A DNA stretch of 64,000 bases, from the NCBI GenBank assembly GCA_036630325.1, contig CP142726.1, positions 682,001 through 746,000 of the forward strand. The letters run 5' to 3'. Source of the DNA: Vairimorpha necatrix (Eukaryota). Positions 30,259 through 60,758 of this stretch are shown one piece after another. Made by a program: the position numbers and the translations under genes. Position 1 is the stretch's first letter. Every line of letters starts with the position of its first letter. The notes beneath the pieces were generated by a model that saw only the letters and a list, made by a program, of their open reading frames with translations, had not been told where the DNA came from and searched no databases.

Positions 30259-31152
30259 TGTTAATATGTTTATTGTTATTCTCCATAAAAATTAGGGGTT
30301 ACATATAAAATATTTAAAATTATCAACATCCCCCTCTACAAAATTGGCTCATCAACTAAAAGCTTTAACTGAGAAGCGTGTCTTTTTATTTTCTTTTTTC
30401 CTATCTTGATTATAAACGCATTATTTTTTAAAGCTTTATAAACACATCCTCGAACCTTAAACTTAGGGCTACCTTTTCCTCTATTTCCTTCTTGTCTGAT
30501 TAGCACAACCTCCCCTGGTCTAAAAAAATGTTCTTGCTCACCTTTTCCATTCTTTTTATTGTATTTTATTATATTTTCCATTTGAATCTGTCTTAGTTTG
30601 TCTTGTACATTTAACAAGGTTGCTTCTTGGGGTGTCATTAAGATTCCAGTATGAAACGTGTTGTTGTAAATCTCTATAGCTCTTTTTAACTTCGTTTTTA
30701 AAAAACTGTCTTCCTTATTCTTAAATATTAGATCTTGTAGTGTCCTATTAAATCTCTCTACTCTACCATTGGATTGGTGATGGTAGGGAGATGTATAATG
30801 TAACTCAATATTATGATGCTTACAAAAGTTGACGACCTTTGAACTTAAATTTTCTTTTGACTGATCTAATATAAGTGTTTTTATCTTGACCTTTTCGTTG
30901 ACATCTTCTATAAAACTTACTACCTTTTCATCGTTTCTTGAACTAAGAACTTTTGCAAAACCTTCTCTAGTAAAATAATCAATTGCTGATATGATATATT
31001 GCTTTCCTATTGGGCCTATTATATCCACCGCAACCTTTTCTCCTCTTTCGAATGCCGTAACAAAAATAAACTTTTTTTTTTATGTTAATATGTTTATTGT
31101 TATTCTCCATAAAAATTAGGGGTTACATATAAAATATTTAAAATTATCAACA
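30259..31152 (-). mobile_element. 894-bp integrase-only LTR element E with 70-bp LTRs
   Basis: Identical TG..CA repeats 30259-30328 and 31083-31152, TSD CCTAC, PPT (AGAGGGGGA on minus) next to the 3' LTR. Confidence 0.92.
30336..31070 (-). CDS. Gypsy integrase core plus C-terminal domain (no HHCC finger)
   Basis: VDIIGP, IDYFTR, ILDQSKE and SNGRVERFNRTL; open to the natural stop; close homologue of element D integrase. No in-frame ATG upstream of the catalytic core as sequenced. Confidence 0.7.
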   Translation of the reverse strand, partial: FIFVTAFERGEKVAVDIIGPIGKQYIISAIDYFTREGFAKVLSSRNDEKVVSFIEDVNEKVKIKTLILDQSKENLSSKVVNFCKHHNIELHYTSPYHHQSNGRVERFNRTLQDLIFKNKEDSFLKTKLKRAIEIYNNTFHTGILMTPQEATLLNVQDKLRQIQMENIIKYNKKNGKGEQEHFFRPGEVVLIRQEGNRGKGSPKFKVRGCVYKALKNNAFIIKIGKKKIKRHASQLKLLVDEPIL

Positions 31153-33881: not shown

Positions 33882-36189
33882 AAAAAAATTATTAGATTTT
33901 TATGTTTTCTATTATTTTTGACGCAATCCAGAGGAGCTACCTCTGGACAAATATAGTTCTATTAAATTATACGTTTTATTTATTTGATTAAAGCCTCGTT
34001 GGGCATCCGTAATGGGATACTGGTCCCTGGCTCTGAGGCCCTTCCTTGGTCGTGGATTCCAAGGGTATTGATCTTTGTCTTGTCTCATAATTTTGTGTGG
34101 GGGTCAGGGCAAAAAGGAAATAAATATTTGATTTTTGGAATAGACCGGTCGAATGGTCTATTTTCCAAAAAGGGAAAATTGATAAAATAAAAAGAAATAA
34201 TTTGTTGTATTTATAATACCACATTCTACCCCCTCTAAAGTTTAATGTTCTTGACATGTATCCACTCAGAGATTCCATTAACCTTTACCCATTTTCCTTT
34301 GGATCCTAATTGCGTTACCTTTCTCTTTCTTAAGTACTTCCGGTCTAACTTCGTAGCTGTCAAATTCCTTACATATACTTCGTCGCCTAGCCTGAATTTG
34401 GGAGTAGTTAATGTTTTTTTCATATTACGCATTTGTATTGCTCTTTCTAGTGGATCATAGTATTCTTTCCCATTTAACGCAGCATTGGGGGAACATCCTA
34501 TTGATCTATTATAGTTATTATTGATCACCCATTCGCACATATCAATGGCTGTGATTATATTTTCGCCTTTCATTATAGACAGTATGAATGTTATAGTGCG
34601 GTTTACTGACTCTGATATACCATTTGAACTTGGGGTATATGTTGGAACGCGTAAGTGCTTTATGTCCACTTCGTTTAAATATTGTTCAACTTGTTTGCTT
34701 GTATACTGCTTTCCGTTATCTGATATTAGTATTGTAGGTTTAGATTTTGTTAATTCAGTCCAATTGCTGATTGCGCTTATAATCTCTTCTCCTCTTATTT
34801 TATATGCTAAATATAGTTTCGTGTATCGTGTCTTTATGTCTGTTACTGTAATAATAAATCCTTTATTATGCTTACCCGCGTCCTTAAATTTCTCTAAATT
34901 AAATGGACCATATATGTCCGAGCTAATTCTTTCAAGATTGTTTTCAGCTGACATATGGGCTCCTACCTCTCTTTTGACATAAGTTACTTTGTAAGTTTTG
35001 CATTTTCGACAATCATTTACTATTTGTTTGATCCTATGGAATAGATGTGGAACATAAAAAAAATTCTTTAGGTTATTATACATTGTTGTTATTCCTCTAT
35101 GGCCTTGTTCATGATGTATTTTATATAACCAGTGTTTTACTTTATTTGGTTTCATAAAAATTTTTCCGTCTTTATTCATTTTTATCCTTTGATTTTTGTC
35201 CTTTATCATTGCATCTTTGACCATTTTTATGTATCCATCTTCATTGTTTTTGATAATTGTGAAGCATCTCGATAAACTATCTGCAATTACATTTTCTTTA
35301 CCTTCTATGTGTATTAATTTATGGTTAAATTCATTAATGATTAACTTCCAACGACACATTCTTGAGGTTTCTAGTTTCACGTTGTTTAAGCAATTTTTAC
35401 TGTCTGTTCTGACTTCTACAAAATTTCCTTGCAAGATGCCTTTAAAGTGTATGAGTGATAAAAGGATTCCAAGATATTCCTTTTCTACAATACTATAATT
35501 TAGTTCAACCTTTCCAAATTTTTTACTAAAATATCCAATTGGACCATCCTCTTGGTAAAGTACACTACCTATCCCCATATCAGAAGCATCACATTCTAAG
35601 GTGAATGACTTTGTGTAATCTGGGCAGATTAATCTCGCTCTATTTTTAATAAATTCGCTTATGTCCTTAATAATGTTCTTAACATGCTGAGTCGATTCTA
35701 TTTTTGCTCCTTGCTGCAGCATGTTTGTTAATGGGAGTAATTTTGTAGACAAATTTGGTAGGAATTTTCTATACCATCCAATCGTCCCTAATAGTTTTTG
35801 GACATCTCTTTTAGTTTTTAGTCTTCTCTCTAATATTTCTTTAGGAATCAATTTGTTCGCTGGAAACACACCGTCAGCATTTATTGTATTTCCTAGTACC
35901 GTGATTTCATCTTTCATAAAGTTACTTTTTTCAAAGTTTATTTTTACATTTTTCTCTTTGAGTTTGTTCAAAACATTTACTATTAATTTGTTGTGTTCTT
36001 CCTTGGTTTCTGAGAATAATACAATATCATCTGTCAAGTGACAGATCTCCAGTGGTCCTAAGATTACCCTGGAGACTAGAGAATACTATTCTATAAGTAT
36101 TCTCCTCCTTTACCAAACTATGTTTATGGGGGGAAAATGTACAATATTTTCCCGCCTATAAATATAAAAGAAAATCATACCCTTGGGGT

Positions 36190-38205
36190 ATGAAGATGAA
36201 GAACAATAAAAATTATAGTTTAAAACATTCTTCTCGGACTGATGGGAAACCATCAGTCCACAATGGTGGTAACGGTGAAGAGGATTTGAACGATCACTTT
36301 AATAGTCTCATCACGCACATGAAAAAAATATGTCTGAGCAATAGGTGGACAGAATTTAACGGCGAAACTTTAAAACAAGCCGAAGATTTTTTAACTCAGT
36401 TCCGCGAAATTGAGGATGTGTATACGCAAGATAAAACGCTAGATATTGCCAAATCTAAACTTAAAGGCAAGGCGTTAACATGGTTCAAAGCGTTCGAGGG
36501 TGATGAAATTACAGACTATGATTCATTCAAAACCCAGTTTAAAAAAAAGTATTTAAAAGAGAAACTAACAGAAGATATAGCAGATAGGTTCATGCATCTA
36601 TATGTGGAAGGTCCAAAGGAAAGCGACATTTTAAGTTACGCTTATGACCTCAAAAGATATGCAAAAGGAAACCCTGAATATTTTGCCAGATCAAAGATTT
36701 CTATAGGAAGGAACTCCCCTGATAAGTTGAAGGAGCCTATTAAAGAAACGAAAGATTGGTTGGAATTGCTGGAATTAGTTGAGAACAAACAAACTCTTAT
36801 AAATTATCATTTAAACAAAAAGAAAACATTTAGTAGAAAACCATCTTATGAAGCTATCTCACGAGAAAAAAAAGATAATAAAATTTGTGGAGAAAAAGCA
36901 GAACAAGTAAATTCTGCCATGCTTTTAAGGATAGGAGAAATGAAATCGACTACTAAACTACAAGATATCCGCCCGAGGATAAATCTATATTCGGGAACGA
37001 TAAAATTTTCCGCTCTTATTGATACCGGATCTCAAGTGAATCTCATTAGTAAAACAATGATTCAAAAACTGAAATTAAAACCAACAAAAGAAACTCTTAC
37101 GGTTGAAGGAATAGGGGGCCAGTTCAAATCAGGAGGAAAAATACAGGTCTTTATAAAGAGGCCCAAGATCAAGAAAAATGAAATGATCGAGGCTTACGTA
37201 ATAGATAAATTACCGGAAGACTTTATAATTGGCATAGTAGATGCCAAGAAACTAAATCTACTCAAAAGGTTTGATAAAATAGATGGCGCTATAACAACGA
37301 AATCTGTCTGCACAACGGGAAAAATATCCGAAACACATCTAACAGACATTGTAAAAGAAAATTACTTTCAAGAAGGAAAAGAAAAAAGTAATAAACTTGC
37401 CATAGTACATTCGAAGGCTTTCCATATTAAAGACCAAAACTTAAGCTTTAGTAGTAGCAATGTTATAGATGAGCTAAAGTATTGTCCGGAATCTAAGTGC
37501 ATCCAACATAGGAGACCATTAGGTCAAAGGGAAGCGATAAGAGTCAAGCCCAAAGTGCTTTTGAGTAAAATTGGAAAGGAAGAAACTGTATCGACGTTTA
37601 CTCTCCCGGTCGCTCCAATCAAAGCATCTTTCAGTGACATGGTAATTTGTAATGACAAGGGAAAACTTAACAGAAGTAAAAAAAAAGAGTTTTACCCACA
37701 TCCTTTAATACAAAAATTACATGATCCACCCGTATTGACAAACTTTGAATTGAAGTTAAAATACCTACAGCTAAATACCTGGGGGAAAGGCAGAGAACAT
37801 ATACCTCACAAAAAAAGGAGGAAAAAAATTTATAGGGGCAGTATGCTGCCGGAGCTTATAAATAGACAATTTAGATCTATTAAAATGATAAATGGATGGC
37901 GGAAAGACTCCGACGAAAAAGAAATGCTTCGTTATACATCTATCGCTTACTCGCGGAAGAAACCAAGAAATGAAAAGGAAAAAGTTAAAGACAATGTGAA
38001 ATTAAGTGTTCATAGAGTTCGGGACGTAGTACGAAAGCGAAAACCACCGATAAGCATTCAGAAGAAAGGAATTGACAAAATGAAAAAGTCATATACTATT
38101 CCTACGGTTGGAATAGAGGGAGTCTATAAAGTATATAGCCTAAATAATGACGCATTCGCTATTAACTGGAAGTACTTGAAGACGCGTCAACAAATGGTAA
38201 CCTAG
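36190..38205 (+). CDS. Gag-aspartic protease plus degenerate Pol-derived basic tail (671 aa)
   Basis: LKGKALTWF Gag motif, ALIDTGSQVNLIS..DFIIG protease; ATG lies inside the 5' LTR. Confidence 0.9.
   Translation: MKMKNNKNYSLKHSSRTDGKPSVHNGGNGEEDLNDHFNSLITHMKKICLSNRWTEFNGETLKQAEDFLTQFREIEDVYTQDKTLDIAKSKLKGKALTWFKAFEGDEITDYDSFKTQFKKKYLKEKLTEDIADRFMHLYVEGPKESDILSYAYDLKRYAKGNPEYFARSKISIGRNSPDKLKEPIKETKDWLELLELVENKQTLINYHLNKKKTFSRKPSYEAISREKKDNKICGEKAEQVNSAMLLRIGEMKSTTKLQDIRPRINLYSGTIKFSALIDTGSQVNLISKTMIQKLKLKPTKETLTVEGIGGQFKSGGKIQVFIKRPKIKKNEMIEAYVIDKLPEDFIIGIVDAKKLNLLKRFDKIDGAITTKSVCTTGKISETHLTDIVKENYFQEGKEKSNKLAIVHSKAFHIKDQNLSFSSSNVIDELKYCPESKCIQHRRPLGQREAIRVKPKVLLSKIGKEETVSTFTLPVAPIKASFSDMVICNDKGKLNRSKKKEFYPHPLIQKLHDPPVLTNFELKLKYLQLNTWGKGREHIPHKKRRKKIYRGSMLPELINRQFRSIKMINGWRKDSDEKEMLRYTSIAYSRKKPRNEKEKVKDNVKLSVHRVRDVVRKRKPPISIQKKGIDKMKKSYTIPTVGIEGVYKVYSLNNDAFAINWKYLKTRQQMVT
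36264..36291 (+). promoter_or_regulatory. PBS of element A (tRNA-Leu-like, extended and interrupted)
   Basis: TGGTGGTAACGGTG-AAGA-GGATTTGAAC resembles the complement of a eukaryotic tRNA-Leu 3' end through the T-loop. Confidence 0.6.
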
Positions 38206-40753
38206 GAGCCTTTAAAGAAGGGGGGAGTGTCAAGTGACAGATCTCCAGTGGTCCTAAGATTACCCTGGAGACTAGAGAATACTATTCTATAAGTATTCTC
38301 CTCCTTTACCAAACTATGTTTATGGGGGGAAAATGTACAATATTTTCCCGCCTATAAATATAAAAGAAAATCATACCCTTGGGGTATGAAGATGAAGAAC
38401 AATAAAAATTATAGTTTAAAACATTCTTCTCGGACTGATGGGAAACCATCAGTCCACATCATCTATGTACACAAAGCAGTTATCCACTTCGTGTAATATT
38501 TCAGTGATGTATCTTTGGAAAATTTTTGGACCCGGTTTAATGCCAAAGGGTATTCGTTTGTATCGGTATTGGGCTCCCATAATCATAAATGATGTCAAGT
38601 CTCTGCTTTCTTGCTGGATTTTAATCTGGTTGAATCCGTTCTTAAAATCTATTTGAGAAAAGTACTTATTTCTTCCCATCCTTAGTATACAGTCATCTAT
38701 TTTTGGTATTGAAAAAATGTCATCTTCGATGTGATCATTTATCTCTTTAAAATTTATGACCAGTCTTAATTCACCAGTTTTCTTTTCGATAAAATATCCT
38801 GGGCTTGCGAAAGTTGCTCTAGACTTCTCTATAATATCTTCATCAAGTAATCTTTTAACCTCTTTTCTTGCTCTTTCATAATATTTGAAAGCTATATTGT
38901 AGAATTTATGTCGCGTGATATTCAACTTCTTTATAACCGTAAATCGAGCTTCATCCATTTTCATAGAGTAAAATTTATCATTTAGTTTCTTATAATTTTC
39001 AAGGTGTGAAATATAAATTTCCTTCGAAGGAGACACATAAAGTAAATTGTTAAATCGTTCATTTAACATCTCATCCGTGTTTGGTATCGCGTCCATAAAG
39101 GGAATTTCTTCATTGTTGATAACAAGTGATTGGTTAGCAAAATCAATTGTAGCTTTATTCTTCCTTAGCCATTCAGATCCTAGTAGTAAATCGACGGGGC
39201 AATTTTTAATAATATAGAATTCAATATCCATGATAATATTTGGAGACAACCTTATTCGTATTCTAGCTTTAGTGTTAATCATTCTTTCATCTCCATTTCC
39301 AAATATAGTAGTGAAGGGCTGACACGGTTCAGCTATATGATCATTCATGTTGACCACTTGTTCACTCACAAAATTCAAGTGTGAACCTGTATCGATTAAC
39401 AATAAGTAATTATTTGAGTCTAATATTCCTATTATTTTTACTTCTTTCTGATTACTTGTTGTTCCTAGCTGAATAACCATATTATTTCTTTTTGTTTTTT
39501 CTTCAAAATGTATCGTTTTATCTTTAGTATCTTTGAGATTGTTCCGAAGTCTACAATCTCTTGTATTGTGCGAAAAGCTCTTGTGCACACTACAATAAGG
39601 ATTTCTTGATTTGCAAATTTTGCTTGTTTCATTAGGTACATATCCATTCTCGTTTCGTCTTCCTATTTGAGAAATAATAGTTGATTCTAAAGTCTTTAGA
39701 TAAGCAATAACGTCTGAAGTGGTCCGCGTATTAACCTCATTTTTGCAAAGTTCCATCTCAGTTTGTTTACCTAGTCCTCTAAAAAATACTTCTGAAAATT
39801 TTCTCTCAGCTTCTTGCTTAGTTAAATTATTTGAGAAACTGTAGGCATCTAACTTTTGGGAAATATTCTTCACATAATCTTCCAGATATATGTGGTTGCA
39901 CTGCCTAACATCTTCGAGCTCCTGTGCAATTCTAAATCTCATGTTTCTAGGATAGGCAATTTCTAGTAATGCCGCTCTTAAATTTAAGTATGATTTACTA
40001 TACTTGGCGTTTAAAAAGTGATCGCCAACTAACATGGTCCCATATATTCTTCCCATCTGCTCATCATTCCAGCCATTGGCCTCTGCTAGATTCTCAAATT
40101 TCTGTAGCTCCACCATTGAAATTTCTGATGGTTTTTTAATAATTTTTATTTTTTCTTTACTTATCACATCTGTTCCAGTGATCTTCATGTCGAATTCTCT
40201 GTATTCGAACATGGAATTTCTATCTTCGTAATTACTATTTAATTCGTCTTTGAATTCAAAATGACGCAATCCAGAGGAGCTACCTCTGGACAAATATAGT
40301 TCTATTAAATTATACGTTTTATTTATTTGATTAAAGCCTCGTTGGGCATCCGTAATGGGATACTGGTCCCTGGCTCTGAGGCCCTTCCTTGGTCGTGGAT
40401 TCCAAGGGTATTGATCTTTGTCTTGTCTCATAATTTTGTGTGGGGGTCAGGGCAAAAAGGAAATAAATATTTGATTTTTGGAATAGACCGGTCGAATGGT
40501 CTATTTTCCAAAAAGGGAAAATTGATAAAATAAAAAGAAATAATTTGTGGTATTTATAATACCACAATTTTAAATTAGTTTTTTATGTTTATGATCATTT
40601 TGATACTTTTTCTATTTTTTAATTTATTTAGTGATATAAATATAGTAATATTCAAATGCTATATTGCACAATATTTATGATCCATACAAAAAAAAATTTA
40701 AATTAAATATGTATATCATAAATATACCCTTAAAAAATACATATTTCAATTTT

Positions 40754-40972
40754 TCGGTGAATTTGTAGTCGGTGAATTTGTAGTCGGTGAATTTGTAGTC
40801 GGTGAATTTGTAGTCGGTGAATTTGTAGTCGGTGAATTTGTAGTCGGTGAATTTGTTGTCGGCGAATTTGTTGTCGGTGAATTTGTTGGTCGGTGAATTG
40901 ATTTTCGGTGAATTGATTTTCGGTGAATTGCTGTCGGTGAATTGATGTCGGTGAATTGATGGTCAGTGAATT
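40754..40972 (-). repeat. 14-15-bp tandem array in right TIR of the Mutator element
   Basis: About 15 units of GTCGGTGAATTT.., the reverse complement of the left array. Confidence 0.92.
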
Positions 40973-41377
40973 CTCCATACACCAACTGCTATGTTGATTC
41001 TATGGCTTTTAAACTGCATATGCGATCTATTGTGGTCTTTAAATCTATGATTAAAGATACGAAAAGTACAATAAAGCCGATTTTAAAAGTACAAAACCAT
41101 CTTTTCTCTTTTATTTTTAAAAAAAACCAATATCCAAAAATTGATGATTTTTACATTACATCATTTAAATTTTTTTCAATAGCTAATTATCTAGAAAAAA
41201 TTAAGTATTATTCCTATTATAAATAAAATTTCACATAATTATTTCTCAAATAATCTTAGATTCGTTTATTGAATACCAGAGAATAATAATGATGGAAAAA
41301 AAAGAGATAATATTTTATGTTGACTTACAATATAACTTAAAAATTTAGACCAACAGCAGTAATAAAAATTTTATTTA

Positions 41378-42100
41378 TTACCATACAGATGCTAAAAAGT
41401 ACGCTATTAAAGGAATTGTAAAATAAATAAAGTGCAAGGTTCTTTTATGCGGCCATTTAGGTGTTATTTCCTCATTTTCATCAAACAAGGCCGAAAAATT
41501 GAATTTTCGGAAATAACAACAGCGCATATAATAAATGAGTAGTTGATAATCAGTTTTTTTAAAAATTTGTTCAACCTGCAAATTGTTTACTTTATTCATC
41601 ACTATATGACAATAGTTTTTGAAGATTCTTTTTAACATATTCAAATCAATTTTTATGATATTATAATCAACACGCATGAGCTCTTCATGTATTAACTTAG
41701 TCTTCTTAGCGAAAGAATATACCAAATTATAAACAGCCAATTGCTTGCCAGTACGTGCTTTTTCATCGCAGTTTTCATATAAAGCATTCATAAATAAGTC
41801 AAATTGTATGTCTTCTCTATTAATTTCATATTCTTCTTGGTTAGGTTCTTTTGGCCAACTAAGCTGACTTTTTAGGGGAAATGTCGTTTTTTCTAACAAT
41901 GCGTCAAATAATATCTTTAAGCTTTTTTTTTCATGATCCATATTATTTATTTTACAGTTATGCAGTTTTTCATCTTGGGATTGTACTTTAGTAAGTTGAT
42001 CAACATTCATTGTTTCTTGAGTCAATATCCCAGTATAATTCTTAACGGTAGCTTTTATTTTCTGTATATTTAGAATGAATAATACCATAATTAAAAACAT
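41378..42100 (-). CDS. Family-2 protein: signal peptide plus C-terminal TM (240 aa)
   Basis: CCCC upstream, hydrophobic N- and C-termini, FD.L.E..TFP.K.Q.SWP..YEI motif shared with 51185 and 62564. Confidence 0.85.
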   Translation of the reverse strand: MFLIMVLFILNIQKIKATVKNYTGILTQETMNVDQLTKVQSQDEKLHNCKINNMDHEKKSLKILFDALLEKTTFPLKSQLSWPKEPNQEEYEINREDIQFDLFMNALYENCDEKARTGKQLAVYNLVYSFAKKTKLIHEELMRVDYNIIKIDLNMLKRIFKNYCHIVMNKVNNLQVEQIFKKTDYQLLIYYMRCCYFRKFNFSALFDENEEITPKWPHKRTLHFIYFTIPLIAYFLASVW

Positions 42101-42589
42101 CTTATGGGGTTGAAATTATTTTTTTTATTTATAACAAAAAAAAACTAGCTTAAGCTTTAACGTTTTGAAAACGAGATATATGTAATCGCGAATTGAATCG
42201 ACAATTTGTTTAACCATTTTTTTAGAAAATTATTGTTCGGATTTTAATTTAACAACAATAAAAATTAAATTTTAGAAAAACTCAAATTAATGTGATATAA
42301 AATGCTCTAAAAATTCAGAATGATGACTTTATTTATTTTAAAAATATTTTTAAATCTTTTGATCGAAATCTTTGATTTTAATTAACTGTGGAAGATTTTG
42401 ATAAATTAAAAATGATCCTAACGACATTTAGGAACTGAGTTTTAAAAAAATATAAATCTAAATTTTTTCTTTTATATACGCAATTAAAATTATCAAATTC
42501 TACCATTAAATCTATATTTGTTGTTACTTTACAAAAAAAACATTAAACACTTCGTTAAAAATACATAAAACAGATAAGGAAAAAATTGA

Positions 42590-45500
42590 ATGAATAAATA
42601 TAAAGAGATATCATATGAGTTTAGATTTGAACTTTTTCTGCTCAACATAGCGAACACAAATGAAGAAGAGCAACAAGTCAGACAAGAGTTCAGGGGAGCT
42701 GAAAATTATTCAAAGAAGCTAAGAGAGTTGAAGCGATTTAAAGAATTCGGGGAGAAGCAAAAGAAGTGCACTTAAGCAGTCGTCAAAACAAGCAAGTATT
42801 GAACTGCAGGATCAAATTTTCGAATAATTTTGGAGTACGGAAGATTGGGAGGATATTAATGATGAAATTTGAAAATTAGTCTAAGAGGAGGAAGAGAAGG
42901 AAAACAAATAAAAGATAATGAAGAAAGAACTGGAAGATAGGGTAGAGATGATGAAAGAAAAAATAAGAAGGGAGATATTAGGAGCAATGATCAGAAGAGT
43001 GGCAGTATCAGGAAGAAATTTTTAATATGAAAAATTGAAAGAAAACCATTGTTTCATATGTAGAAGAATTAAACATATAGCTGGAAGTTGTATGGAGCAT
43101 AAAGAAATACAGGAAGAGGATGATTGAAATAAGAGTTTAAAATTTTTTGTATATGTAATATAGTAAAATGAAAATTTTGGAATTAAATGACTTTAAATTT
43201 AGAATCGTAGTAGAGGCAAAAAGAGAAAACACAAAAAACAATTTTTATGTGGGAAATACAAAACAAAATGAAGAAAAAAATATTAATAATCTTAAAAATT
43301 GGAAGGAAAATTTATAGAAATATTAGGAAAAGACGAGAAGAAAATAATTTGCTTAGCAGAAGGAAAACATTCTAGTTTTATAAAACAACGAGTAAAGAGT
43401 AATTAAAAGGAGACAACATTCCTATAATCTACGTGAATTGTTAGAAAATTAGGAGGCGAGGTACCACAGTACCCCACATTTGAGGGTGTTTACTTTATTT
43501 TTTCGAACCCCAAAAACGAAGTGCAAAATAAAGGAGGAGCAGGAAGGGGACAAAAATTACTAAGCACTTATGATATTAAAAATAACAAATAAATACATGC
43601 TTTTATTCAAAATTTAATTTTAAATTTAGTTATAATAATCATTTATTGTGTTGTATCTTTTTTGCCCTTCTTATTTTTTCCATTTTTTTTTAATTGTTGG
43701 TTTATTATAAAAGTAGATTTTCTTCAAAAATCTACTTTTATAATAAACCAACAATTAAAATTATAAATATTATTTATATAAGAAAATTTAAATAAATGTT
43801 CAACGATCTATACAGATTGTTAAATCAAAAAATTTAATTTAAAATATGTTAAGTTATTTAGAATTATATAGTTTTATGGTTATATTCTTTTTTTAAATTA
43901 AATTTCGTATACAAATATATAATTATTTGGTATTTTTACTGTTTAAAGATGCAAGTACTTTGAGTGCTAATGATTGCTTCTCCTTTATTTTGCACTTTGT
44001 TTTTGGGGTTCGAAAAAATAAAGTGAACACCCTTGGAGGGGGGCGTGTTGGTCCCCAATTCTAATAAATCAGAAGGGTAAAAAATGCTTGTTAATTTATA
44101 TAAGTGTAAAAACTTGTATTAAAATATGATTCTGTACATAAATATATATTTATTTGTTATTTTTAATATCATAAGTGCTTAGTAATTTTTGTCCCCTTCC
44201 TGCTCCTCCTTTATTTTGCACTTCGTTTTTGGGGTTCGAAAAAATAAAGTAAACACCCTCAAATGTGGGGTACTGTGGTATCTTTCACCCGAAAATTATA
44301 TAAATTTATTAGAAAATAGAGGAATTATCAGAACAACAAAGAGTGGGGGGAGGCCCATTAAGGGCTATGAAAACCTAAATAAAGATGTGAGATTAGGAAT
44401 TAATTTGATGGCCTTTAACAAACTTGTTGAAAAGAATCCGTATGAATTGCCATTGATTAGAGACATTATTAGGGCAACGCAAGGTTTTAAAGTATTTACG
44501 GTTATAGACCTAAAGGAAGGATTCTATCATATAGAAATTGAGGAAGCTCACAAACATAAGACAGCTTTTGAGATAAATGGTAGAGTATACGAATGGAATA
44601 GCATGGTTATATGATATAAAAACTATCTCCATATTATGCAAAGAGTGATATGCGAAATTTTAGATGAGATTAGAGGCAAATGTGTTGAGGTGTACATGTA
44701 TGATATTATAATTCATGCAAGAGATAGCAATATACACGATAATTTATTAGAACAAGTAATTCAAAACCTAAAGAATTTGGATTAAAAGTAAACTCAAGAG
44801 AAGAAGCAAAACTGCTAAGAATAACGATTAACGGAAAAAAAATTAAACCAAACAAAATAAAAAGCATGAGACAAGAAAACAAAAGGCCCAATAACATATA
44901 GAGCTTAGATGATTTTGGAGGCTAGCAGGCGGGTTTAGAGATTTTAGCCCTCATTATGCTTATCGGACATCAAGACTTAAACAAGCTCGAAAAAATATGT
45001 TAAATGGGCATGTTCCGAAGATATAGAGATAGCTTTTATTGATATCAAAGAGGAATTAGAGATATCTAAAAATTAAAAATAGCAGACAGTAAAATCGGAC
45101 GCATGCGATACAGAAATTAGCCATACTATTACATGAAGATAAGAAAGGCGGATACCAATAAAATGGGCATCGAAAATGAAAACATCAGCAGAAAAAAAGA
45201 TATGCAATTAGTGGAAAGAAGATGTTGACTGTGTTATTTGGAATTTAGAATTCGAGACAGATATGTGAAGAGAAAATTTTATTTATTGAAAGCATAAAGC
45301 CCTGGTCGAGATTAGAAACAACCCGTTTTCAACATAAACTGAAATAATAATGGATAGAATATATACAAGAATTCGACTTCACTATTGACTATGTAAAAGG
45401 AGAGCCGATTACGGATGTAGATGCTCTTAGTAGACAATTTGAAAATAACGAAGTATAAGAAAAAAGCGAAAGAGAGAAACAGACCCAAAAACAAATAAAA

Positions 45501-45730
45501 GAGAAAGAAATAATGAAATGATTCAAAGAGGAGAAAAAACTATTAAAAGTTCTCAACAGGATAAATTAATGAAATTCTACACGAAGAATTAAGAAAAACA
45601 GAAATTCGTAGAGTTCATAGAGAATATAATCATTTAGACGTTAAGGGAACACATTATAAGATTAAACAAAGATGGTACTGGCCAGGTATGAACGACCAGA
45701 TAACGAAAATTTCAAAAAAAAAATCTTGAA
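42590..45730 (+). mobile_element. Heavily degraded Gypsy element G
   Basis: Knuckle remnant CFICRRIKHIAGSC, RT segment PYELPLI..VIDLKEGFYHIEI..HKTAF, RNase H/IN remnants (DALSR, WYWPGM); many stops. Boundaries approximate. Confidence 0.8.
43452..44290. mobile_element. Non-autonomous TIR element (Merlin-type MITE)
   Basis: ~140-bp TIRs, GG..CC ends, 8-bp TSD GAAAATTA (43444-43451, 44291-44298); interrupts element G. Confidence 0.9.
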
Positions 45731-45741
45731 GTATGTAATAT

Positions 45742-48071
45742 TGTTGTAGACTGTATTTCTACAACATTTATTTTATTTCACTCCCTGTCAAATCTATCAT
45801 TGAATTTTCTAGAATTTTATTTGCTATAAATAAAATTCTAGAAAGGAAGGGTACAGAAGGAAGATGGAGAGACAAACACAAGGAGTGTGTAGACATAGCA
45901 ACAAGACAGCTATGAGAGAGTCCAAAGGGACGTTTAAAAATAAAGGGCAATATATTAATTCTATTTTAGAGTGGTACTTTATCACCGGGAGAGCTTCCCC
46001 GGGATACCACAACTTGAATTCAAGAGCGAGTGTAGGAGTACCAAGTGCGAGTACAAAATTACTAATGAATGATAATAAAATTAATCATGGTGAAGTAAAC
46101 CAAAAGAAAATAAAATTAAGTTACACTATTCCAGGAACGGAATTTAAAATTGAAGAAGAACTGAATATTATAGAAGATATTCAAAAATTTGATATGTATG
46201 AATGGTTTAAAACATTTGAGAAGATTACCACAAGAAACAAGTGGAATTCGGAGCAATATGAGCTCATACTAAGGGATTTGATTTCGGACAAATCCTTAGA
46301 CGATAAAATATTTAAAGGAGATTTAATGAAAATACAAGAAAAAATCTTTAGTTATGTATACAGCGTGAAGAAAGCTGAAGGATGGATTAAGAAACTTGCT
46401 AATGCAAAACAAGTAGATTTTGTAACCATCAAGGAATACTATGAGTACATTAATAAGTACGTTAAATATTATAGTCTTGCATATAAGATAAGCAAGGACG
46501 AGTACAACAGAAAATTATGGGAGTACTTTAAGAACGGGTTAGGTGAAAACACTAGAAGAAAATTAATTGATAATATCAATGTTCACAACCTTGAGGAATA
46601 TATGAATAAATTGTTAACGATGGAAGAAGAAATACTTAATTTAAATAATCCGAGAAATGATTCAAGAAAGTTCGAAACATCTGAACGAACACATAAGAAC
46701 AATTCCTTTTCAATACAAAAGAAGTGGTGCAGATACCACAAGCACAACGGACATAATTCTGTTGATTGTTTCATGAATAAAGAAAAAGGAAATCAAAACC
46801 ATAGGGATTTACCAAGAAGAAATGAAATGAATGTCATGGAAGAAGAAAAAGACAACATTAGAGAAATGGTTGTTAGAGCGAATATTAATGAAAGTAACGT
46901 GAACATTTTGTTAGACAGTGGAGCAAGCAGAAGCTTTATATCTGAAGGATTAGCTAAAAGATTAAATTTAAAGCTTAGAGAAAACAAATCTATAAGAACG
47001 GTTATAGCCAATGGAGAAGTAATTACCACTAATATGTCAACCGAATTAGACTTTAAATTTGAAGGAGTAAGCAAGAGTTACTCTATTGAACCATACGTCT
47101 TTGATAGATGCATGTATGATGTGATTCTAGGCAGCGATTTCTTGTTTAACAACAATTGCATTTTAGATTATAAAAATAAGGTAGTTATTTGTGACGAGAA
47201 GATTGTCAAAATCATTGGGTATGAAGAGGTGGCGGAAAAAACATTGGACGAAATAATGATTGAAAGACTATGCGTAGTGGAAGATGAAAAAATTGAAAAT
47301 GAAGATCATAATAAAGTAAATAATTATACAGCCAAAACGAAAGATAGTAATGTGAAATTTGGTAGGAATAAACATAAGAAAGAAAGAAATACAGTGTTTG
47401 GAAAACAAAATTGGGTTAAAAAGAATAAAAATAAGAAAGTAGTAACAGAATGTAAAACTGGTAAAATTATTAAAGATAAAACAAAAGATCAGGTTAACCC
47501 TGTAGTAAAATATCGAGATAAGATTTCAAAAATAAGATTTTATGATCCTTATAAAGGTAAGGTAATTTTTAATGCATCAGATCGGCCAAGAAAGAAAAAG
47601 ACCAAGATAAAAATGTGTAAGCAGAAAAATAAGGTCGAAGTTCTATTCTATGCGAGGAACTTCTCGACAAACAAACTTAATAAAAAATTTATAAGTCCAT
47701 ACAGGGCGAATCTAAAGAAAAAAACTAAATTATGGTATAAGGTATATGGACTAGCAGGATGGGCTCATAGGAAATAGTAAAAGTTTTGAGAGGGGGCAGG
47801 ATGTTGTAGACTGTATTTCTACAACATTTATTTTATTTCACTCCCTGTCAAATCTATCATTGAATTTTCTAGAATTTTATTTGCTATAAATAAAATTCTA
47901 GAAAGGAAGGGTACAGAAGGAAGATGGAGAGACAAACACAAGGAGTGTTTAGACATAGCAACAAGACAGCTATGAGAGAGTCCAAAGGGACGTTTAAAAA
48001 TAAAGGGCAATATATTAATTCTATTTTAGAGTGGTACTTTATCACCGGGAGAGCTTCCCCGGGATACCACA
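45742..48071 (+). mobile_element. Non-autonomous Gag-protease LTR element C (2330 bp, 270-bp LTRs)
   Basis: LTRs 45742-46011 and 47802-48071 (1 mismatch seen), TSD AATAT, PPT GAGAGGGGGCAGGA. Confidence 0.96.
45864..47777 (+). CDS. Gag-aspartic protease plus basic tail ending in integrase C-terminal remnant (637 aa)
   Basis: CRYHKHNGHNSVDC knuckle, LLDSGASRSFIS..DVILGSDFL protease; homologous to element B Gag-PR; no YxDD. Confidence 0.9.
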   Translation: MERQTQGVCRHSNKTAMRESKGTFKNKGQYINSILEWYFITGRASPGYHNLNSRASVGVPSASTKLLMNDNKINHGEVNQKKIKLSYTIPGTEFKIEEELNIIEDIQKFDMYEWFKTFEKITTRNKWNSEQYELILRDLISDKSLDDKIFKGDLMKIQEKIFSYVYSVKKAEGWIKKLANAKQVDFVTIKEYYEYINKYVKYYSLAYKISKDEYNRKLWEYFKNGLGENTRRKLIDNINVHNLEEYMNKLLTMEEEILNLNNPRNDSRKFETSERTHKNNSFSIQKKWCRYHKHNGHNSVDCFMNKEKGNQNHRDLPRRNEMNVMEEEKDNIREMVVRANINESNVNILLDSGASRSFISEGLAKRLNLKLRENKSIRTVIANGEVITTNMSTELDFKFEGVSKSYSIEPYVFDRCMYDVILGSDFLFNNNCILDYKNKVVICDEKIVKIIGYEEVAEKTLDEIMIERLCVVEDEKIENEDHNKVNNYTAKTKDSNVKFGRNKHKKERNTVFGKQNWVKKNKNKKVVTECKTGKIIKDKTKDQVNPVVKYRDKISKIRFYDPYKGKVIFNASDRPRKKKTKIKMCKQKNKVEVLFYARNFSTNKLNKKFISPYRANLKKKTKLWYKVYGLAGWAHRK

Positions 48072-48081
48072 AATATTAATA

Positions 48082-58549: not shown

Positions 58550-58944
58550 GTTTATATAAGAAAAATTAAATAAATGTTCAACTATCTATATAGATTTTTA
58601 AATCAAAAAATTTAATTTAAAATTTGTTAAAATATTTAGAATTATATAGGTTTATGGTTATAAACTTTTTTTAAATTAAATTTCGTATACAAACATATAT
58701 TTATTTGGTATCTTTACTTATTGAAGATGCAAGTAATTTGAGTACTAATGATTTATTCTCCTTTATTTTGCACTTCGTTTTTTGGGTTCAAAATAATAAA
58801 GTGAACACCCTCAGAGGGGGGCGTTTTTGTTTCCAATTCTAAAAAATCAGAGGGGCAAAAAAATGCTTATTAGTTAATATTATTGTAAAAACTTGTATTA
58901 AAATATAATTGTATACATAAATATATATTTATTTATTGTTTTGT

Positions 58945-59482
58945 GCAGGAATGTGTAGCTAATGAGTATGTTGAGATACGAGTCGACAGTAGGATACATG
59001 CAAGTATTAAAATAAAGTATAACAAGCCTGATATACTAATTGTAGACAAGTTGAGGAAAGAAGTGATCGTTGTAGAAGTTGGAATCACAAGTTTTACAAC
59101 CTCCATGCAGTAGAAACAGAAAAGCAACATAAATATGACTTGCTCGCAAATCATGTGGCTTCTCTCTACAAATACAAGCCGAAAATTATTCCTTATGTGA
59201 TGACGTGGGATGGAATAGTAACTAATTTTCACCGTACGCATATCAAGGTGCTCAGATTAGAACCCAGAACGGAAGCATATATACAGTCAAGAGTCCTTAA
59301 AATGACTTTAGAAAGCCTAAATATGTCAGCCAGACATGGGCTTGATACAGATCAGGAAGGGGTCTTCGAGAGCCCAATGAGTGAATCTCAGAAGGAAGTC
59401 CTGGAACTGCTAGATGATACTGTAAGCGTATCTTGTGAAAAGTAATTAATAAGCCGAATATTATACCCAAATAAATTGTATA
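58945..59482 (+). mobile_element. 3' fragment of the RLE non-LTR retrotransposon
   Basis: Near-identical to 8462-8998. Confidence 0.9.
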
Positions 59483-59900: not shown

Positions 59901-60758
59901 GGCTAATTTTCACTTTATCCCCCCCTTACCAATATAAATACAGAATTTTTTATTTTTAGCCCTGTTTTTTAAAAGTCGAAGCGTCCAGAGCGGAAAGGAA
60001 CAGAGAAAAATTTACATAAGTAAAAAAATGGTCTTAGAAATATCTAATTTATACATAGTTTATGAAAAATATATTATTTAAACCAATTTAATAATGTTTT
60101 CTAATAAACTATGAGTTAAATAGAAGTCTAAATTTGTAAAAATATGTTTTAACCTATTGCTTTCTTTTGTCATTACATTTAATTTTTGCTAAAGATAAAC
60201 ATGTTTATACTTAGTTTATGTTGTTTAAAACAGAATCTAGGTTAGGTTATTCTTAGTTTGGTAGTATATTTATTAGTCTTGTTTTTTAGGTTTTTATTGG
60301 TTTTTCTAGACAAACAAAGTAAATAATGTTATATTTATGCTCTTTAAAGAATTATTGAATCGTATAGAATGTCAATTTATCAATATATGTTATATTTTAG
60401 CTCCAAAAGTAAAATATTACATGTTTGGAAAATTCTTTAATTCTTGAAAAATATTCATTTATAACAGCAAATGAACCTTATAAATATTGTTTATATAGAG
60501 ATTTCGTTGTTATACATTGCAATGTACAATAAAGATAAATCTTGATCAATAATTGGATGAAGGAAATTTTTAAAAAATGAAAAAAAAACGAAAAAACAAT
60601 TGTTTTATTTTTGGTAAATATGCTATTTTATTTACAGCTTTATTTTTTTGACTTTTGCTCCTTCACATTTTTTCCGCTTCGAATTTCGAAAAAAAGGGAT
60701 ATTTTTAAAAAATTCTTGATTTATATTGGTAAGGGGGGGGATAAAGTGAAAATGCTCC
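59901..60758. mobile_element. Non-autonomous Merlin MITE
   Basis: TIRs GG..TTTTCACTTTAT.CCCCCCC like the element at 22615, 8-bp TSD CTGCTTCT, no transposase. Confidence 0.9.

What the first reader, a model, noticed from the sequence alone, without database searches (positions are those of the whole stretch)
40249..46024. Palindrome instead of a tRNA PBS plus a conserved NAGCU-loop hairpin: candidate tRNA-independent priming system
Seen: elements B and C have dissimilar LTR sequences and no TGG PBS. Exactly 1 nt after the 5' LTR each has a perfect 12-bp palindrome, TTTGAATTCAAA (40249-40260) and CTTGAATTCAAG (46013-46024). The outer pair co-varies and the palindromes are read in different codon frames, so conservation is not at the protein level. 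Both have, 8-9 nt before the LTR end, a GC-rich hairpin with different stems but loops TAGCT (B) and GAGCT (C), containing self-complementary AGCT. Established: Tf1-type elements self-prime via 5'-end/PBS pairing, and retroviral dimer-initiation loops are palindromic. Inference: two element RNAs pair through the loop and palindrome, and one, cleaved or terminated after the palindrome, primes minus-strand synthesis on the other. I do not know of this being described.
Basis: partly seen in the sequence, partly recalled or inferred. Interest (0 to 1): 0.88.

Follow-up and report, generated by a model that had tools for sequence, protein, structure and literature searches.

The report
Palindrome replaces tRNA primer site
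Two jumping genes (LTR retrotransposons) in a microsporidian parasite carry a perfect 12-letter palindrome where such elements normally bind a host tRNA to start copying themselves, and related elements appear to keep the palindrome while changing its letters in matched pairs, which suggests that two copies of the element's RNA pair there and may prime each other.

Summary
B (Ty3/gypsy, minus strand, LTRs 33919-34223 and 40262-40566) and C (gag-protease-only, LTRs 45742-46011 and 47802-48071) each have a perfect 12-nt palindrome 1 nt after the LTR's terminal CA. A third family in the window, D, has an ordinary TGG tRNA site at that same position.

B and C are distant relatives: 23% identity in gag-protease, and LTRs barely alignable. 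A profile search found 395 relatives, and the named ones are all from microsporidia.

Their gag ORF starts inside the LTR and reads through the site. Flanking amino acids therefore report the nucleotides. Positions 1/10 of the core can be complementary in 43 of 44 sites (controls 63 of 144). The outer pair is complementary by purine/pyrimidine class in 24 of 24 informative sites (controls 21 of 45). Sixteen different 12-mers are inferred.

What is conserved is the palindrome, not its sequence. This argues against a fixed host tRNA and against Tf1-type pairing with the transcript's 5' end. It points to pairing between two element RNAs.

Priming by a cleaved partner RNA is the best-fitting mechanism but remains inference. 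The shared AGCU loop is not kept in C's closest relative. Fungal GalEa copia elements are the nearest published precedent.

The parts
40262..40566 (-). Element B 5' LTR (305 nt, TG...CA)
   Evidence: 304/305 identical to 33919-34223
33919..34223 (-). Element B 3' LTR; PPT AGAGGGGGTAGAA lies just upstream on the element strand (about 34224-34236); TSD ATTTT at 33914-33918 and 40567-40571
40249..40260 (-). B palindrome TTTGAATTCAAA at the PBS position; spacer T at 40261; read as F-E-F-K in the gag ORF
40271..40289 (-). B U5 hairpin, 7-bp stem with loop UAGCU, 9 nt before the LTR end
   Evidence: z = -3.8 for the 81-nt fold
38449..40431 (-). B gag-PR-RT(start) ORF. It begins inside the 5' LTR and holds the conserved N-terminal motif ..LIELYLSRGSSSGLRH-FEFK..
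34235..36037 (-). B RT(end)-RNase H-integrase ORF, separated from the first ORF by the insertion of element D
   Evidence: closest solved relative: Ty3
45742..46011 (+). Element C 5' LTR (270 nt); TSD AATAT at 45737-45741 and 48072-48076
47802..48071 (+). Element C 3' LTR; PPT GAGAGGGGGCAGGA at 47788-47801
46013..46024 (+). C palindrome CTTGAATTCAAG at the PBS position; spacer A at 46012; read as (N)-L-N-S-(R) in the gag ORF
45985..46002 (+). C U5 hairpin CCGGG/CCCGG with 8-nt loop AGAGCUUC, 9 nt before the LTR end
   Evidence: fold not better than shuffles, z = -1.2
45864..47777 (+). C gag-protease ORF (637 aa, no RT or IN). It begins inside the 5' LTR and holds the N-terminal motif ..SILEWYFITGRASPGYHN-LNS..
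36032..38458 (+). Element D, the comparator. It is a gag-PR-only LTR element nested in B (TSD TCATC) with a classical PBS TGGTGGTAACGGTGA at 36264-36278, 1 nt after the LTR's CA, and a U5 hairpin with a GAAA loop

Best explanation
A lineage of Ty3/gypsy retrotransposons found across microsporidia has replaced the tRNA primer-binding site with a 12-nt perfect palindrome. The palindrome sits 1 nt after the terminal CA of U5 and inside the N-terminal coding part of gag. What appears conserved is self-complementarity, not the sequence. The site therefore most likely works by pairing with a second copy of itself, that is, between the two co-packaged genomic RNAs.

The U5 boundary is set by where minus-strand DNA synthesis starts, so the 3' end of the primer must anneal at this spot. 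The only element-encoded sequence complementary to the site is the site itself.

The most likely mechanism is self-priming in trans:
1. The two RNAs form a 12-bp duplex.
2. One strand is cut at the 3' edge of the duplex, by analogy with the cleavage that frees the Tf1 self-primer.
3. The new 3'-OH is extended over the partner's spacer, U5 and R to make minus-strand strong-stop DNA.

This would couple genome dimerisation to the start of reverse transcription.

- **Shown:** position, palindromy and lack of complementarity to the LTR in B and C.
- **Inferred from amino-acid sequences:** covariation in relatives.
- **Inferred only:** RNA-RNA pairing in particles, cleavage and priming.

My sub-confidences: about 0.85 that the palindrome is a selected self-pairing element occupying the PBS place without a host tRNA, and about 0.45 that it primes in trans after cleavage.
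For: **Position.** Both palindromes start 2 nt after the LTR's CA. Family D in the same window has its TGG tRNA PBS at the same distance.

**Deep conservation.**
- B and C share only 23% identity over 390 aa of gag-PR.
- Their LTRs are barely above shuffled similarity.
- Yet the 10-nt core is identical and occurs nowhere else in the window.

**No Tf1-type partner.** The best ungapped match of the site's complement in its own LTR is 9 of 13, with runs of 5 or fewer. Duplex energies are no better than shuffled LTRs: 84% and 78% of shuffles do as well.

**The family.**
- A profile of B+C gag-PR found 395 proteins at E <= 1e-10 and 48 at E <= 1e-30.
- 17 of the 30 looked up carry a microsporidian name: Vairimorpha, Nosema, Dictyocoela, Edhazardia, Hepatospora, Enteropsectra and Pancytospora. 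One is labelled an Aeromonas MAG, two carry only a function name, and the rest are unnamed.

**The ORFs read through the site**.
- 40 of the 53 proteins with at least 25 upstream residues have a tripeptide [LM][NSIYL][ST] preceded by residues that allow ..C A...
- The next codon can start with the complement of the first base in 43 of 44 sites, against 63 of 144 elsewhere in the same proteins (p = 7e-12).
- The third base of the preceding codon and the second base of the following codon are of complementary purine/pyrimidine class in 24 of 24 informative sites, against 21 of 45 (p = 2e-6).

**Alignment check.** In alignment A3, 36 of 38 rows admit a perfect 12-nt palindrome at C's columns, with 16 distinct inferred 12-mers. 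The GAATTC core appears with all four outer pairs. The background rate of compatibility is 3.3% of 89,085 positions.

**Against a hairpin.** Inferred pair 4/7 also changes on both sides (N/S/I+S against Y/L+T). That leaves only 2 nt unpaired, too few for a hairpin loop.

**Same host, different palindromes.** Named relatives from one host carry different inferred palindromes: V. necatrix P0123 and P0129, N. granulosis P0125 and P0131.

**Recent activity.** Both elements have near-identical LTRs and TSDs.

**A parallel in Ty3.** The initiation complex dimerises through a 12-nt palindrome at the 5' end of the primer tRNA (PMC5371799, passage read).
Against: - Only B and C were seen as DNA. For all other families the palindrome is inferred by back-translation, and codon choice (TTG, TCA, and the middle pair 5/6) cannot be read from amino acids.
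- The relatives are not independent samples, so the p-values overstate the evidence.
- The 36 relatives in A3 were picked by me because they showed the motif.
- A window-based test was uninformative: 32 of 53 upstream windows held a compatible site, against 755 of 1247 control windows.
- 13 of 53 eligible proteins lack the canonical tripeptide. Most have another compatible pentapeptide at that place, but I found this post hoc.
- Nothing here shows dimerisation, cleavage, or an RNA leader attached to strong-stop DNA.
- Host tRNAs could not be examined because no genome is held and the window has no tRNA.
- The B/C core alone could pair with the 5' half of a tRNA-Leu(CAA). An anticodon arm TTGAA-TTCAAAA-TTCAA exists in tRNA genes on metagenome contigs.
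- The predicted monomer folds of B and C do not agree on a common structure around the site.
Confidence: 0.5

Rival explanations
1. The palindrome is a dimer-linkage or packaging site only. It pairs the two genomic RNAs, doing directly what the palindromic 5' end of tRNAiMet does for Ty3. Minus-strand synthesis would then be primed by something else, such as an unidentified host RNA, a protein, or de novo initiation.
For: - The covariation shows pairing, not priming.
- Palindromes at or near a PBS have been tied to dimerisation or packaging in Ty3 (PMC5371799), MMTV and HIV-2 (PMC8096270, passages read).
Against: - The site occupies the position where the primer's 3' end must anneal, the same offset as D's tRNA PBS. 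No other candidate PBS lies next to U5.
- If priming occurred downstream of the palindrome, 13 extra nt would sit beyond the CA of the cDNA end. The 3' LTRs end cleanly at CA followed by the TSD.
- In MMTV the PBS palindromes turned out not to be needed for dimerisation.
Confidence: 0.25
2. The site is an ordinary PBS for an internal fragment of a host tRNA (half-tRNA priming as in copia or Ty5). For the B/C core this would be the 5' half of tRNA-Leu(CAA), with stem 27-31 TTGAA and loop TTCAA. The palindromy would be a coincidence of that anticodon arm.
For: - In both B and C the core reads as a 5-nt stem followed by U32-U33-CAA and a purine at position 37.
- tRNA-Leu(CAA) genes with the arm TTGAA-TTCAAAA-TTCAA exist: ARAGORN found one at the match in 2 of the 40 loci scanned, L010 and L037.
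- A 10-nt PBS bounded by position 26 would be plausible. That position 26 is commonly modified is recalled knowledge, not a call result.
- Half-tRNA priming is an established type (PMC6317226, passages read).
Against: - B and C differ at the base that would pair with the primer's 3' end, and they differ in a compensatory way.
- The inferred cores of relatives (GAGCTC, GATATC, GTATAC and GTTAAC types, and ATG...CAT) cannot all match one anticodon arm. Several lack U33. Different palindromes occur in one host.
- In plants, half-tRNA primers were found only in Ty1/copia.
- The tRNAs found are not from this host.
Confidence: 0.07
3. The palindrome acts within one molecule or as DNA. Options are a hairpin with a downstream partner as proposed for the GalEa Conserved Hairpin Site, a symmetric binding site for a dimeric protein, or an aid to strand transfer.
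For: - GalEa elements have a palindrome at the same place plus a downstream inverse copy (PMC5445492).
- In B, the LTR end CGUC pairs with GACG just after the palindrome. A GAATTCGA about 50 nt downstream could pair with 8 nt of the site.
Against: - C has no second copy within 200 nt. The B and C folds differ.
- Covariation down to pair 4/7 leaves a 2-nt centre, too small for a hairpin loop.
- A protein site would conserve bases, not complementarity. Sixteen different 12-mers are inferred.
Confidence: 0.1
4. The site reflects chance, or purely protein-level conservation of an L-N-S motif in Gag, with no function as nucleic acid.
For: - The site lies in a conserved coding region.
- L, N and S are common residues in these proteins.
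- MAFFT aligned a second, non-palindromic LNS of B with the LNS of the others.
Against: - B keeps the palindrome in a different frame, read as FEFK.
- The residues after the site fall into the chemically mixed set with A-starting codons after Leu and T-starting codons after Met (43 of 44). The flanking codons covary by base class (24 of 24), unlike the same tripeptides elsewhere in the same proteins.
Confidence: 0.03

Closest known systems
Conserved Hairpin Site of fungal GalEa Ty1/copia elements (Donnart et al. 2017, PMC5445492; abstract, passages and section 10 read; its supplementary lists could not be opened)
   Same: - There is no tRNA PBS.
- A short conserved palindrome sits directly at the 5' LTR junction.
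- The main variants differ by a change on both sides of the palindrome (CTGATCAGT against CTAATTAGT).
- No U5 or 5'-end sequence is complementary to it.
- The mechanism is unknown, and the authors noted the likeness to dimer initiation sites.
   Different: - It belongs to another superfamily (copia, in Pezizomycotina).
- Its palindrome is 10 nt and includes the last A of the LTR. Here it is 12 nt after a 1-nt spacer.
- GalEa has a second, inverse-complementary copy 12-41 nt downstream that forms a hairpin. I found none in C and only a weak one in B.
- Here the site lies inside the gag ORF, and the inferred sequence diversity is much larger.
Tf1/sushi-type self-priming (Tf1, Tf2, Maggy, Skippy, Tcn1 and TAR lineages)
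   Same: - It is tRNA-independent and the primer comes from the element's own RNA.
- A short RNA-RNA duplex forms at the PBS place. The 11-bp length in Tf1 is recalled knowledge; here it is 12 bp.
- The proposed cleavage falls at the duplex edge.
   Different: - In Tf1 the PBS pairs with the first nucleotides of the same transcript. Here no such complement exists in the LTR.
- Here the PBS is self-complementary, so the partner must be a second RNA molecule.
- Cleavage is not shown here.
Ty3 initiation complex
   Same: - B's RT and RNase H are closest to Ty3 among solved structures.
- In Ty3 two initiation complexes are joined through a 12-nt palindrome.
   Different: In Ty3 the palindrome is in the host tRNAiMet primer, and the PBS is a tRNA site. 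Here the palindrome is in the element RNA, at the PBS place itself.
Half-tRNA priming (copia, Ty5, plant Osser, Bryco and Bianca lineages)
   Same: - The PBS has no TGG.
- The B/C core can be read as an anticodon-arm complement.
   Different: - The inferred family variation and the compensatory changes do not fit one tRNA.
- Host tRNAs were not available to test this directly.

Membership tests
Ty3/gypsy (Metaviridae) LTR retrotransposon | Direct LTRs with TG...CA ends, a short TSD, and a PPT before the 3' LTR | tested here: met
   B has 305-nt LTRs, TSD ATTTT and a PPT. C has 270-nt LTRs, TSD AATAT and a PPT.
Ty3/gypsy (Metaviridae) LTR retrotransposon | Domain order gag-PR-RT-RNase H-IN | tested here: met
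   B has PR, RVT_1, RT_RNaseH, Integrase_H2C2 and rve in that order, split by the insertion of D. C has gag-PR only, so it is non-autonomous; the closest solved relative is Ty3.
Classical tRNA-primed LTR element | A PBS starting with TGG, complementary to a tRNA 3' end, within a few nt of U5 | tested here: not met
   there is no TGG after the LTR of B or C. D and E in the same window do have TGGTGGTAACGGTGA 1 nt after the LTR.
Tf1/sushi-type self-priming | [quoted passage not shown] | tested here: not met
   the best match in either LTR is 9 of 13 with runs of 5 or fewer. Duplex energy is no better than shuffled LTRs.
Tf1/sushi-type self-priming | RNase H-dependent cleavage that frees the RNA primer | not testable with these tools
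   No RNA run was listed.
Half-tRNA priming (copia/Ty5 type) | A PBS complementary to an internal stretch of a host tRNA ending in the anticodon arm | tested here: inconclusive
   Host tRNAs are unavailable. The B/C core fits a tRNA-Leu(CAA) arm that exists elsewhere in nature. The inferred variation among relatives and within one host argues against it.
GalEa Conserved Hairpin Site | A palindrome at the 5' LTR junction in place of a PBS | tested here: met
   Here it has a 1-nt spacer and is 12 nt long rather than 10.
GalEa Conserved Hairpin Site | A second conserved sequence 12-41 nt downstream, inverse complementary to the first, forming a hairpin | tested here: not met
   C has no second copy. 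B has only a GAATTCGA about 50 nt downstream. The MFE folds of B and C do not share such a hairpin.
GalEa Conserved Hairpin Site | Member of the GalEa clade of Ty1/copia | tested here: not met
   the domain order and the closest relatives are Ty3/gypsy.
Retroviral kissing-loop dimer initiation site | A conserved self-complementary sequence in the loop of a leader hairpin | tested here: inconclusive
   AGCU is in the U5 hairpin loops of B and C. It cannot be retained in C's closest relative P0123, where Ala becomes Val at the GCT codon. C's hairpin is not more stable than shuffles.

The most novel reading that the evidence does not exclude
A whole lineage of microsporidian Ty3/gypsy elements starts reverse transcription without any host RNA. 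The two packaged genomic RNAs pair through a 12-nt palindrome at the PBS place. One is cut at the duplex edge and primes minus-strand synthesis on the other. Genome dimerisation then becomes an obligatory part of priming, and each replication cycle re-copies the palindrome from the partner. The unsolved palindromic site of fungal GalEa copia elements might work the same way, which would make this a third general priming strategy of LTR retroelements, beside tRNA priming and 5'-end self-priming.
Probability: 0.4. Interest if true: 0.9.

Novelty: new variant of a known kind. Interest (0 to 1): 0.77.

Why it matters
Three ways of priming LTR retroelements are recognised: a whole tRNA, a half tRNA, and the transcript's own 5' end (PMC6317226). 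The palindromic site of fungal GalEa elements has stood unexplained since 2017.

This window adds a second, unrelated case, in Ty3/gypsy rather than copia and in microsporidia rather than filamentous fungi. It also adds an argument the GalEa work did not have. Because gag reads through the site, dozens of families can be compared. They indicate compensatory change along most of the 12 nt, which points to pairing between two molecules rather than to a hairpin or a host tRNA.

If confirmed, the work would have three consequences:
- It would define a new priming strategy.
- It would explain how these elements stay active in very reduced parasite genomes without depending on a particular tRNA.
- It would give annotation tools a signature for elements now reported as lacking a PBS.

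It is directly testable with leader RNA and RT in vitro.

Tried and rejected
**Resources that were closed or empty.**
- No whole genome is held.
- ARAGORN found no tRNA in the window, so complementarity to host tRNAs could not be tested.

**Sequencing runs.** Four runs were listed and no RNA holder was listed. There is therefore no evidence on transcripts, 5' ends or cleavage.

**Searches for relatives.**
- The word-indexed search with B's gag-PR gave only 2 weak hits. This wrongly suggested an isolated family. The full HMMER search corrected it.
- DNA of relatives could not be obtained:
  - Viral contigs gave nothing.
  - Metagenome contigs with the B+C alignment gave nothing.
  - Alignment A3 was too diverse to search with.
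  - Genome contigs gave no answer three times.

**The tRNA-arm scan.** The second metagenome scan used a hypothetical tRNA-Leu(CAA) arm pattern. It returned 108 stretches, mostly a heptamer repeat. tRNA-Leu(CAA) genes lay at the match in 2 of the 40 loci scanned.

**Ideas rejected.**
- Tf1-type pairing with the LTR.
- The tRNA-Gln(UUG) reading, which has no U33 in C.
- A T-arm reading, which would need A53.
- My own interim view that the palindromes lie in a 5' UTR, with gag starting at 40212 and 46065. It was wrong: the Met at 46065 is not conserved in P0123, and the upstream peptide is conserved.

**Tests that told nothing.**
- A window-based enrichment test for palindrome-compatible peptides was uninformative: 32 of 53 against 755 of 1247.
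- An iterated HMM anchor on the upstream motif reached only 20 proteins, and the linker to the site varies in length.
- Cofold dimer predictions are trivially favourable for any hairpin or palindrome, so I did not use them as evidence.
- The Atlas look-up of the kinesin did not resolve the taxon. The homologue search did: microsporidia near Vairimorpha and Nosema.
- A six-frame profile scan found no further member of this lineage in the window.

**Literature.** Searches for a description in microsporidia found none (with passages of PMC4202319). A search on palindromic PBS, dimerisation and minus-strand priming in LTR retrotransposons found only the GalEa paper for such a site. The 2006 Nosema bombycis retrotransposon paper that I recall was not found in the library. 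The supplements of the GalEa paper could not be opened.

Full report
**1. What is in the window**

The window comes from an AT-rich eukaryote (GC 0.20-0.35) with intron-less genes. A kinesin in it finds its best named relatives in microsporidia: Vairimorpha bombi 60%, Nosema granulosis 55%, and Encephalitozoon and Ordospora 46-49%.

Repeat mapping and alignment define three LTR-element families around the finding.

- **Element B** lies on the minus strand.
  - Its LTRs are 33919-34223 and 40262-40566 (305 nt, 304/305 identical, TG...CA).
  - It has a 5-bp duplication ATTTT and a polypurine tract AGAGGGGGTAGAA.
  - It encodes gag, protease, RT, RNase H and integrase in Ty3/gypsy order. Its closest solved relative is Ty3.
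  - It is interrupted by element D.
- **Element C** lies on the plus strand.
  - Its LTRs are 45742-46011 and 47802-48071 (270 nt, one mismatch).
  - It has the duplication AATAT and a polypurine tract GAGAGGGGGCAGGA.
  - It encodes only gag and protease plus an unassigned C-terminal part.
- **Element D** (36032-38458) and its copy **E** (56124-58549) are another gag-protease-only family with 231-nt LTRs.

**2. The observation**

Each is separated from the LTR's terminal CA by one nucleotide.

- The shared core TTGAATTCAA occurs exactly twice in 64 kb, both times here.
- Perfect 12-nt palindromes occur about once per kb in this window (66 in all). Two at one defined position with the same core is not chance.
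- Family D has an ordinary TGG site (TGGTGGTAACGGTGA) at the same offset, one nucleotide after CA. The palindromes therefore sit at the positional equivalent of a primer-binding site.
- The U5 hairpins are present. B's is clearly stable (z = -3.8) and C's is not better than shuffles (z = -1.2). D has one too, with a GAAA loop.

**3. B and C are distant relatives**

- Their gag-protease parts align over 390 residues at 23% identity (E = 1e-25). D shares only the protease.
- The LTRs of B and C are barely more alike than shuffled sequence: 177 matches in 320 columns, against a shuffle mean of 157 and maximum of 169.
- An identical 10-nt core at one position after that much divergence means strong constraint.

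**4. Known priming types tested**

- There is no TGG site.
- There is no Tf1-type pairing. The complement of the site (which equals the site itself) has no match in either LTR better than 9 of 13 with runs of 5 or fewer. Predicted duplexes between site and LTR are no better than with shuffled LTRs.
- Host tRNAs could not be tested, because no genome is held and the window has no tRNA gene.
- I examined what tRNA region the core could match.
  - The tRNA-Gln(UUG) reading fails in C.
  - A tRNA-Leu(CAA) reading fits both B and C: stem 27-31 TTGAA, then loop U-U-CAA-purine.
  - tRNA-Leu(CAA) genes with that arm do exist on metagenome contigs. Of 108 stretches matching the pattern, ARAGORN found one at the match in 2 of the 40 loci scanned, L010 and L037.
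  - From B and C alone, a half-tRNA primer therefore could not be excluded.

**5. The turn: relatives and the reading frame**

The word-indexed protein search found almost nothing (2 weak hits). A full HMMER search with the B+C gag-protease profile found 4796 proteins at E <= 0.001, 395 at E <= 1e-10 and 48 at E <= 1e-30. Only the best 150 are listed.

Of the 30 I looked up:
- 17 carry a microsporidian name: Vairimorpha necatrix and V. apis, Nosema granulosis, Dictyocoela muelleri and D. roeselum, Edhazardia aedis, Hepatospora eriocheir, Enteropsectra breve and Pancytospora epiphaga.
- One is labelled as an Aeromonas MAG, probably a stray contig.
- Two carry only a function name.
- The rest are unnamed.

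Many of these proteins extend 40-80 residues upstream of the Met I had first taken as the gag start. That extension holds a conserved peptide, roughly [KR]-S-[IL]-[LF]-E-x-Y-[FL]-x-x-G-[RE]-[VIL]-P ... H-x-x, followed by L-N-S or a variant.

- C reads ..SILEWYFITGRASPGYHN-LNS-R..
- B reads ..LIELYLSRGSSSGLRH-FEFK-D...
- C's closest relative is P0123 from V. necatrix, 63% identical over the whole gag-protease protein. It keeps the upstream peptide but not the Met at 46065.

Gag therefore starts inside the LTR and reads through the site. I recall the same arrangement for Ty1, where the PBS lies within GAG. D does the same through its tRNA site.

**6. Covariation read from amino acids**

Because the ORF crosses the site, the residues report parts of the nucleotide sequence. 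In C's frame the 12-mer consists of:
- the third base of the preceding codon,
- three full codons,
- the first two bases of the next codon.

*Fixed-rule test.* The rule was a tripeptide [LM][NSIYL][ST] in the N-terminal region.
- It gave 54 matches in 44 proteins.
- After Leu (TTG) the next codon can start with A in 36 of 42. After Met (ATG) it can start with T in 9 of 12.
- For the same tripeptides elsewhere in the same proteins the figures are 162 of 367 and 14 of 49.
- The failures are mostly second matches inside the upstream motif.

*With a filter.* I required that the two preceding residues allow ..C A.., the LTR end.
- 44 matches in 42 proteins remain.
- Positions 1 and 10 of the core can be complementary in 43 of 44, against 63 of 144 in controls (p = 7e-12).
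- Where the purine/pyrimidine class of both bases is fixed by the amino acids, the outer pair is of complementary class in 24 of 24, against 21 of 45 in controls (p = 2e-6).
- The residues after L-N-S are I, K, T, N, M, S and R. This is a chemically mixed set that shares only an A-starting codon. That is not what protein-level selection gives.

*Alignment check.*
- In an alignment of B, C and 36 relatives, 36 of 38 rows admit one perfect 12-nt palindrome at C's columns. I chose those 36 relatives because they showed the motif.
- The exceptions are B, whose real palindrome is in another frame six codons upstream, and one row misaligned by one residue.
- Sixteen different 12-mers are inferred. 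They include the GAATTC core with all four outer pairs, cores of GAGCTC, GATATC, GTATAC and GTTAAC type, and ATG...CAT in place of TTG...CAA.
- The background rate of such compatibility is 3.3% of 89,085 positions.
- Named relatives from one host carry different inferred palindromes: V. necatrix P0123 and P0129, and N. granulosis P0125 and P0131.

**7. Limits of that evidence**

- Only B and C were seen as DNA. Codon choice within the three core codons, and the middle pair, cannot be read from amino acids.
- The relatives share ancestry, so the p-values overstate independence. Both classes of the outer pair do recur within several core types.
- Thirteen of 53 eligible proteins lack the canonical tripeptide. 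Most have another compatible pentapeptide at the same place: I-N-L-S-[C/L], V-N-L, L-H-A, L-D-P, and L-D-I-K in B's frame. Their flanks again fit, but I found this post hoc.
- A window-based enrichment test was uninformative: 32 of 53 against 755 of 1247.
- I could not fetch DNA of any relative.

**8. What it most likely is**

The conserved property is self-complementarity over 12 nt, next to the U5 end. Pair 4/7 also changes on both sides (N/S/I with S, against Y/L with T). That leaves a 2-nt centre, which is too small for a hairpin loop. The pairing should therefore be between two molecules.

A fixed host tRNA cannot match many different palindromes, some of them within one host.

The U5 boundary of an LTR is set by where minus-strand synthesis begins. 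The primer's 3' end must therefore anneal here. The only element-encoded complement is the site on another copy of the RNA.

1. Two packaged RNAs pair through the palindrome.
2. One is cut at the 3' edge of the duplex.
3. It primes on the other.

This would be a symmetric variant of Tf1 self-priming, whose 11-bp duplex and cleavage at the edge I recall from memory. It also parallels Ty3, where two initiation complexes are joined by a 12-nt palindrome in the primer tRNA (PMC5371799). Pairing in particles, cleavage and priming are all inferred.

The main rival is that the palindrome is only a dimer-linkage or packaging site and that the primer is something unknown. The position argues against this, and so do the clean CA ends of the 3' LTRs.

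**9. The hairpin loop**

- C's hairpin is not significantly stable.
- In P0123 the Ala (GCT) is a Val, so AGCT cannot be kept there.
- Most families read G-[RE]-[VIL]-P at that place. A GG...CC stem may well be conserved there, because Gly and Pro codons are complementary. A conserved palindromic loop is not supported.

**10. Comparison with what is known**

Three primer types are recognised: a whole tRNA, a half tRNA and 5'-end self-priming (PMC6317226).

The closest precedent is the Conserved Hairpin Site of fungal GalEa copia elements (PMC5445492).
- It is a palindrome at the LTR junction in place of a PBS.
- Its two main variants differ on both sides of the palindrome.
- It has a downstream inverse copy.
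- Its mechanism is unknown.

The present case differs in several ways.
- It belongs to a different superfamily and host group.
- It has a 1-nt spacer and is 12 nt long.
- It lacks a clear downstream partner.
- It lies inside gag.

I found no description for microsporidian elements. The library lacks many subscription papers, and the GalEa supplements were closed.

**Verdict.** This is a new variant of a known kind. The tRNA-independent, self-pairing reading is well supported. The trans-priming step is a good hypothesis awaiting the DNA check and an RNA/cDNA-end experiment.

Noticed in passing
window 45742-48071 (C), 36032-38458 (D), 56124-58549 (E): There are three intact LTR elements of about 2.3-2.4 kb that encode only gag and protease plus an unassigned C-terminal part of about 170-300 aa, with no RT or integrase. 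Their LTRs are identical or nearly so, and they have clean 5-bp duplications (AATAT, TCATC, GTTTA). C's whole protein, including the C-terminal part, is 63% identical to a Vairimorpha necatrix protein (P0123). This looks like a long-lived non-autonomous family rather than a recent deletion.
   Followed up: partly
window 36032-38458 within 33919-40566: Element D is inserted in the RT region of element B (TSD TCATC), splitting B's polyprotein ORF. B's LTRs are still 304/305 identical, so both insertions are recent.
   Followed up: partly
window 36190-36280, 45864-46030, 40240-40431: In all three families the gag ORF starts inside the 5' LTR and reads through the U5 hairpin and the primer site. 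D shares a G-K-P...V-H-N pattern before its tRNA site with the G-R-x-P...H-N of the palindrome lineage. This suggests a common U5 architecture in which only the primer site was exchanged.
   Followed up: partly
window 22615-23923: An ORF with an ISXO2/IS1595-like DDE transposase domain (22995-23822) is flanked by inverted repeats of about 120 nt that are 92% alike (22621-22743 and 23800-23922). It looks like a Merlin-type DNA transposon. A related end lies at 60639-60758.
   Followed up: no
window 8459-8998 and 58943-59482: Two copies of a coding-looking repeat are 96% identical. It resembles the 3' end of a non-LTR retrotransposon ORF. The second copy is next to the region into which E inserted.
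   Followed up: no
window 9300-12613: A further Ty3/gypsy element has zinc knuckle-PR-RT-RNase H (9800-11557) and integrase (11762-12613). No LTR pair was detected in the window, so its primer site could not be read. Related integrase remnants lie at 30336-31076.
   Followed up: no
window 20620-20855: A tandem array of an AT-rich 34-nt unit (about 6-7 copies) lies between the STE-like transcription factor gene and the kinesin gene.
   Followed up: no
window 115-762, 2674-3437, 5342-5764, 16678-17081: Four diverged copies (63-78% identity) of a repeat overlap ORFs of 200-235 aa that have no Pfam match.
   Followed up: no
loci L002, L003, L008, L009 and many others: Most metagenome matches to the tRNA-arm pattern are a recurrent motif GACCATTTT-TTGAATTCAAAATTCAAAATTCAAAGTTCAA, made of heptamer repeats of AATTCAA or AGTTCAA. 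It occurs on many contigs of one record series. It is unrelated to the finding.
   Followed up: no
loci L010 (1619-1692) and L037 (9290-9363): These loci hold dense arrays of 12-14 tRNA genes. Each includes a short (74-nt) tRNA-Leu(CAA) whose anticodon arm contains the same 10-nt palindrome as elements B and C.
   Followed up: partly
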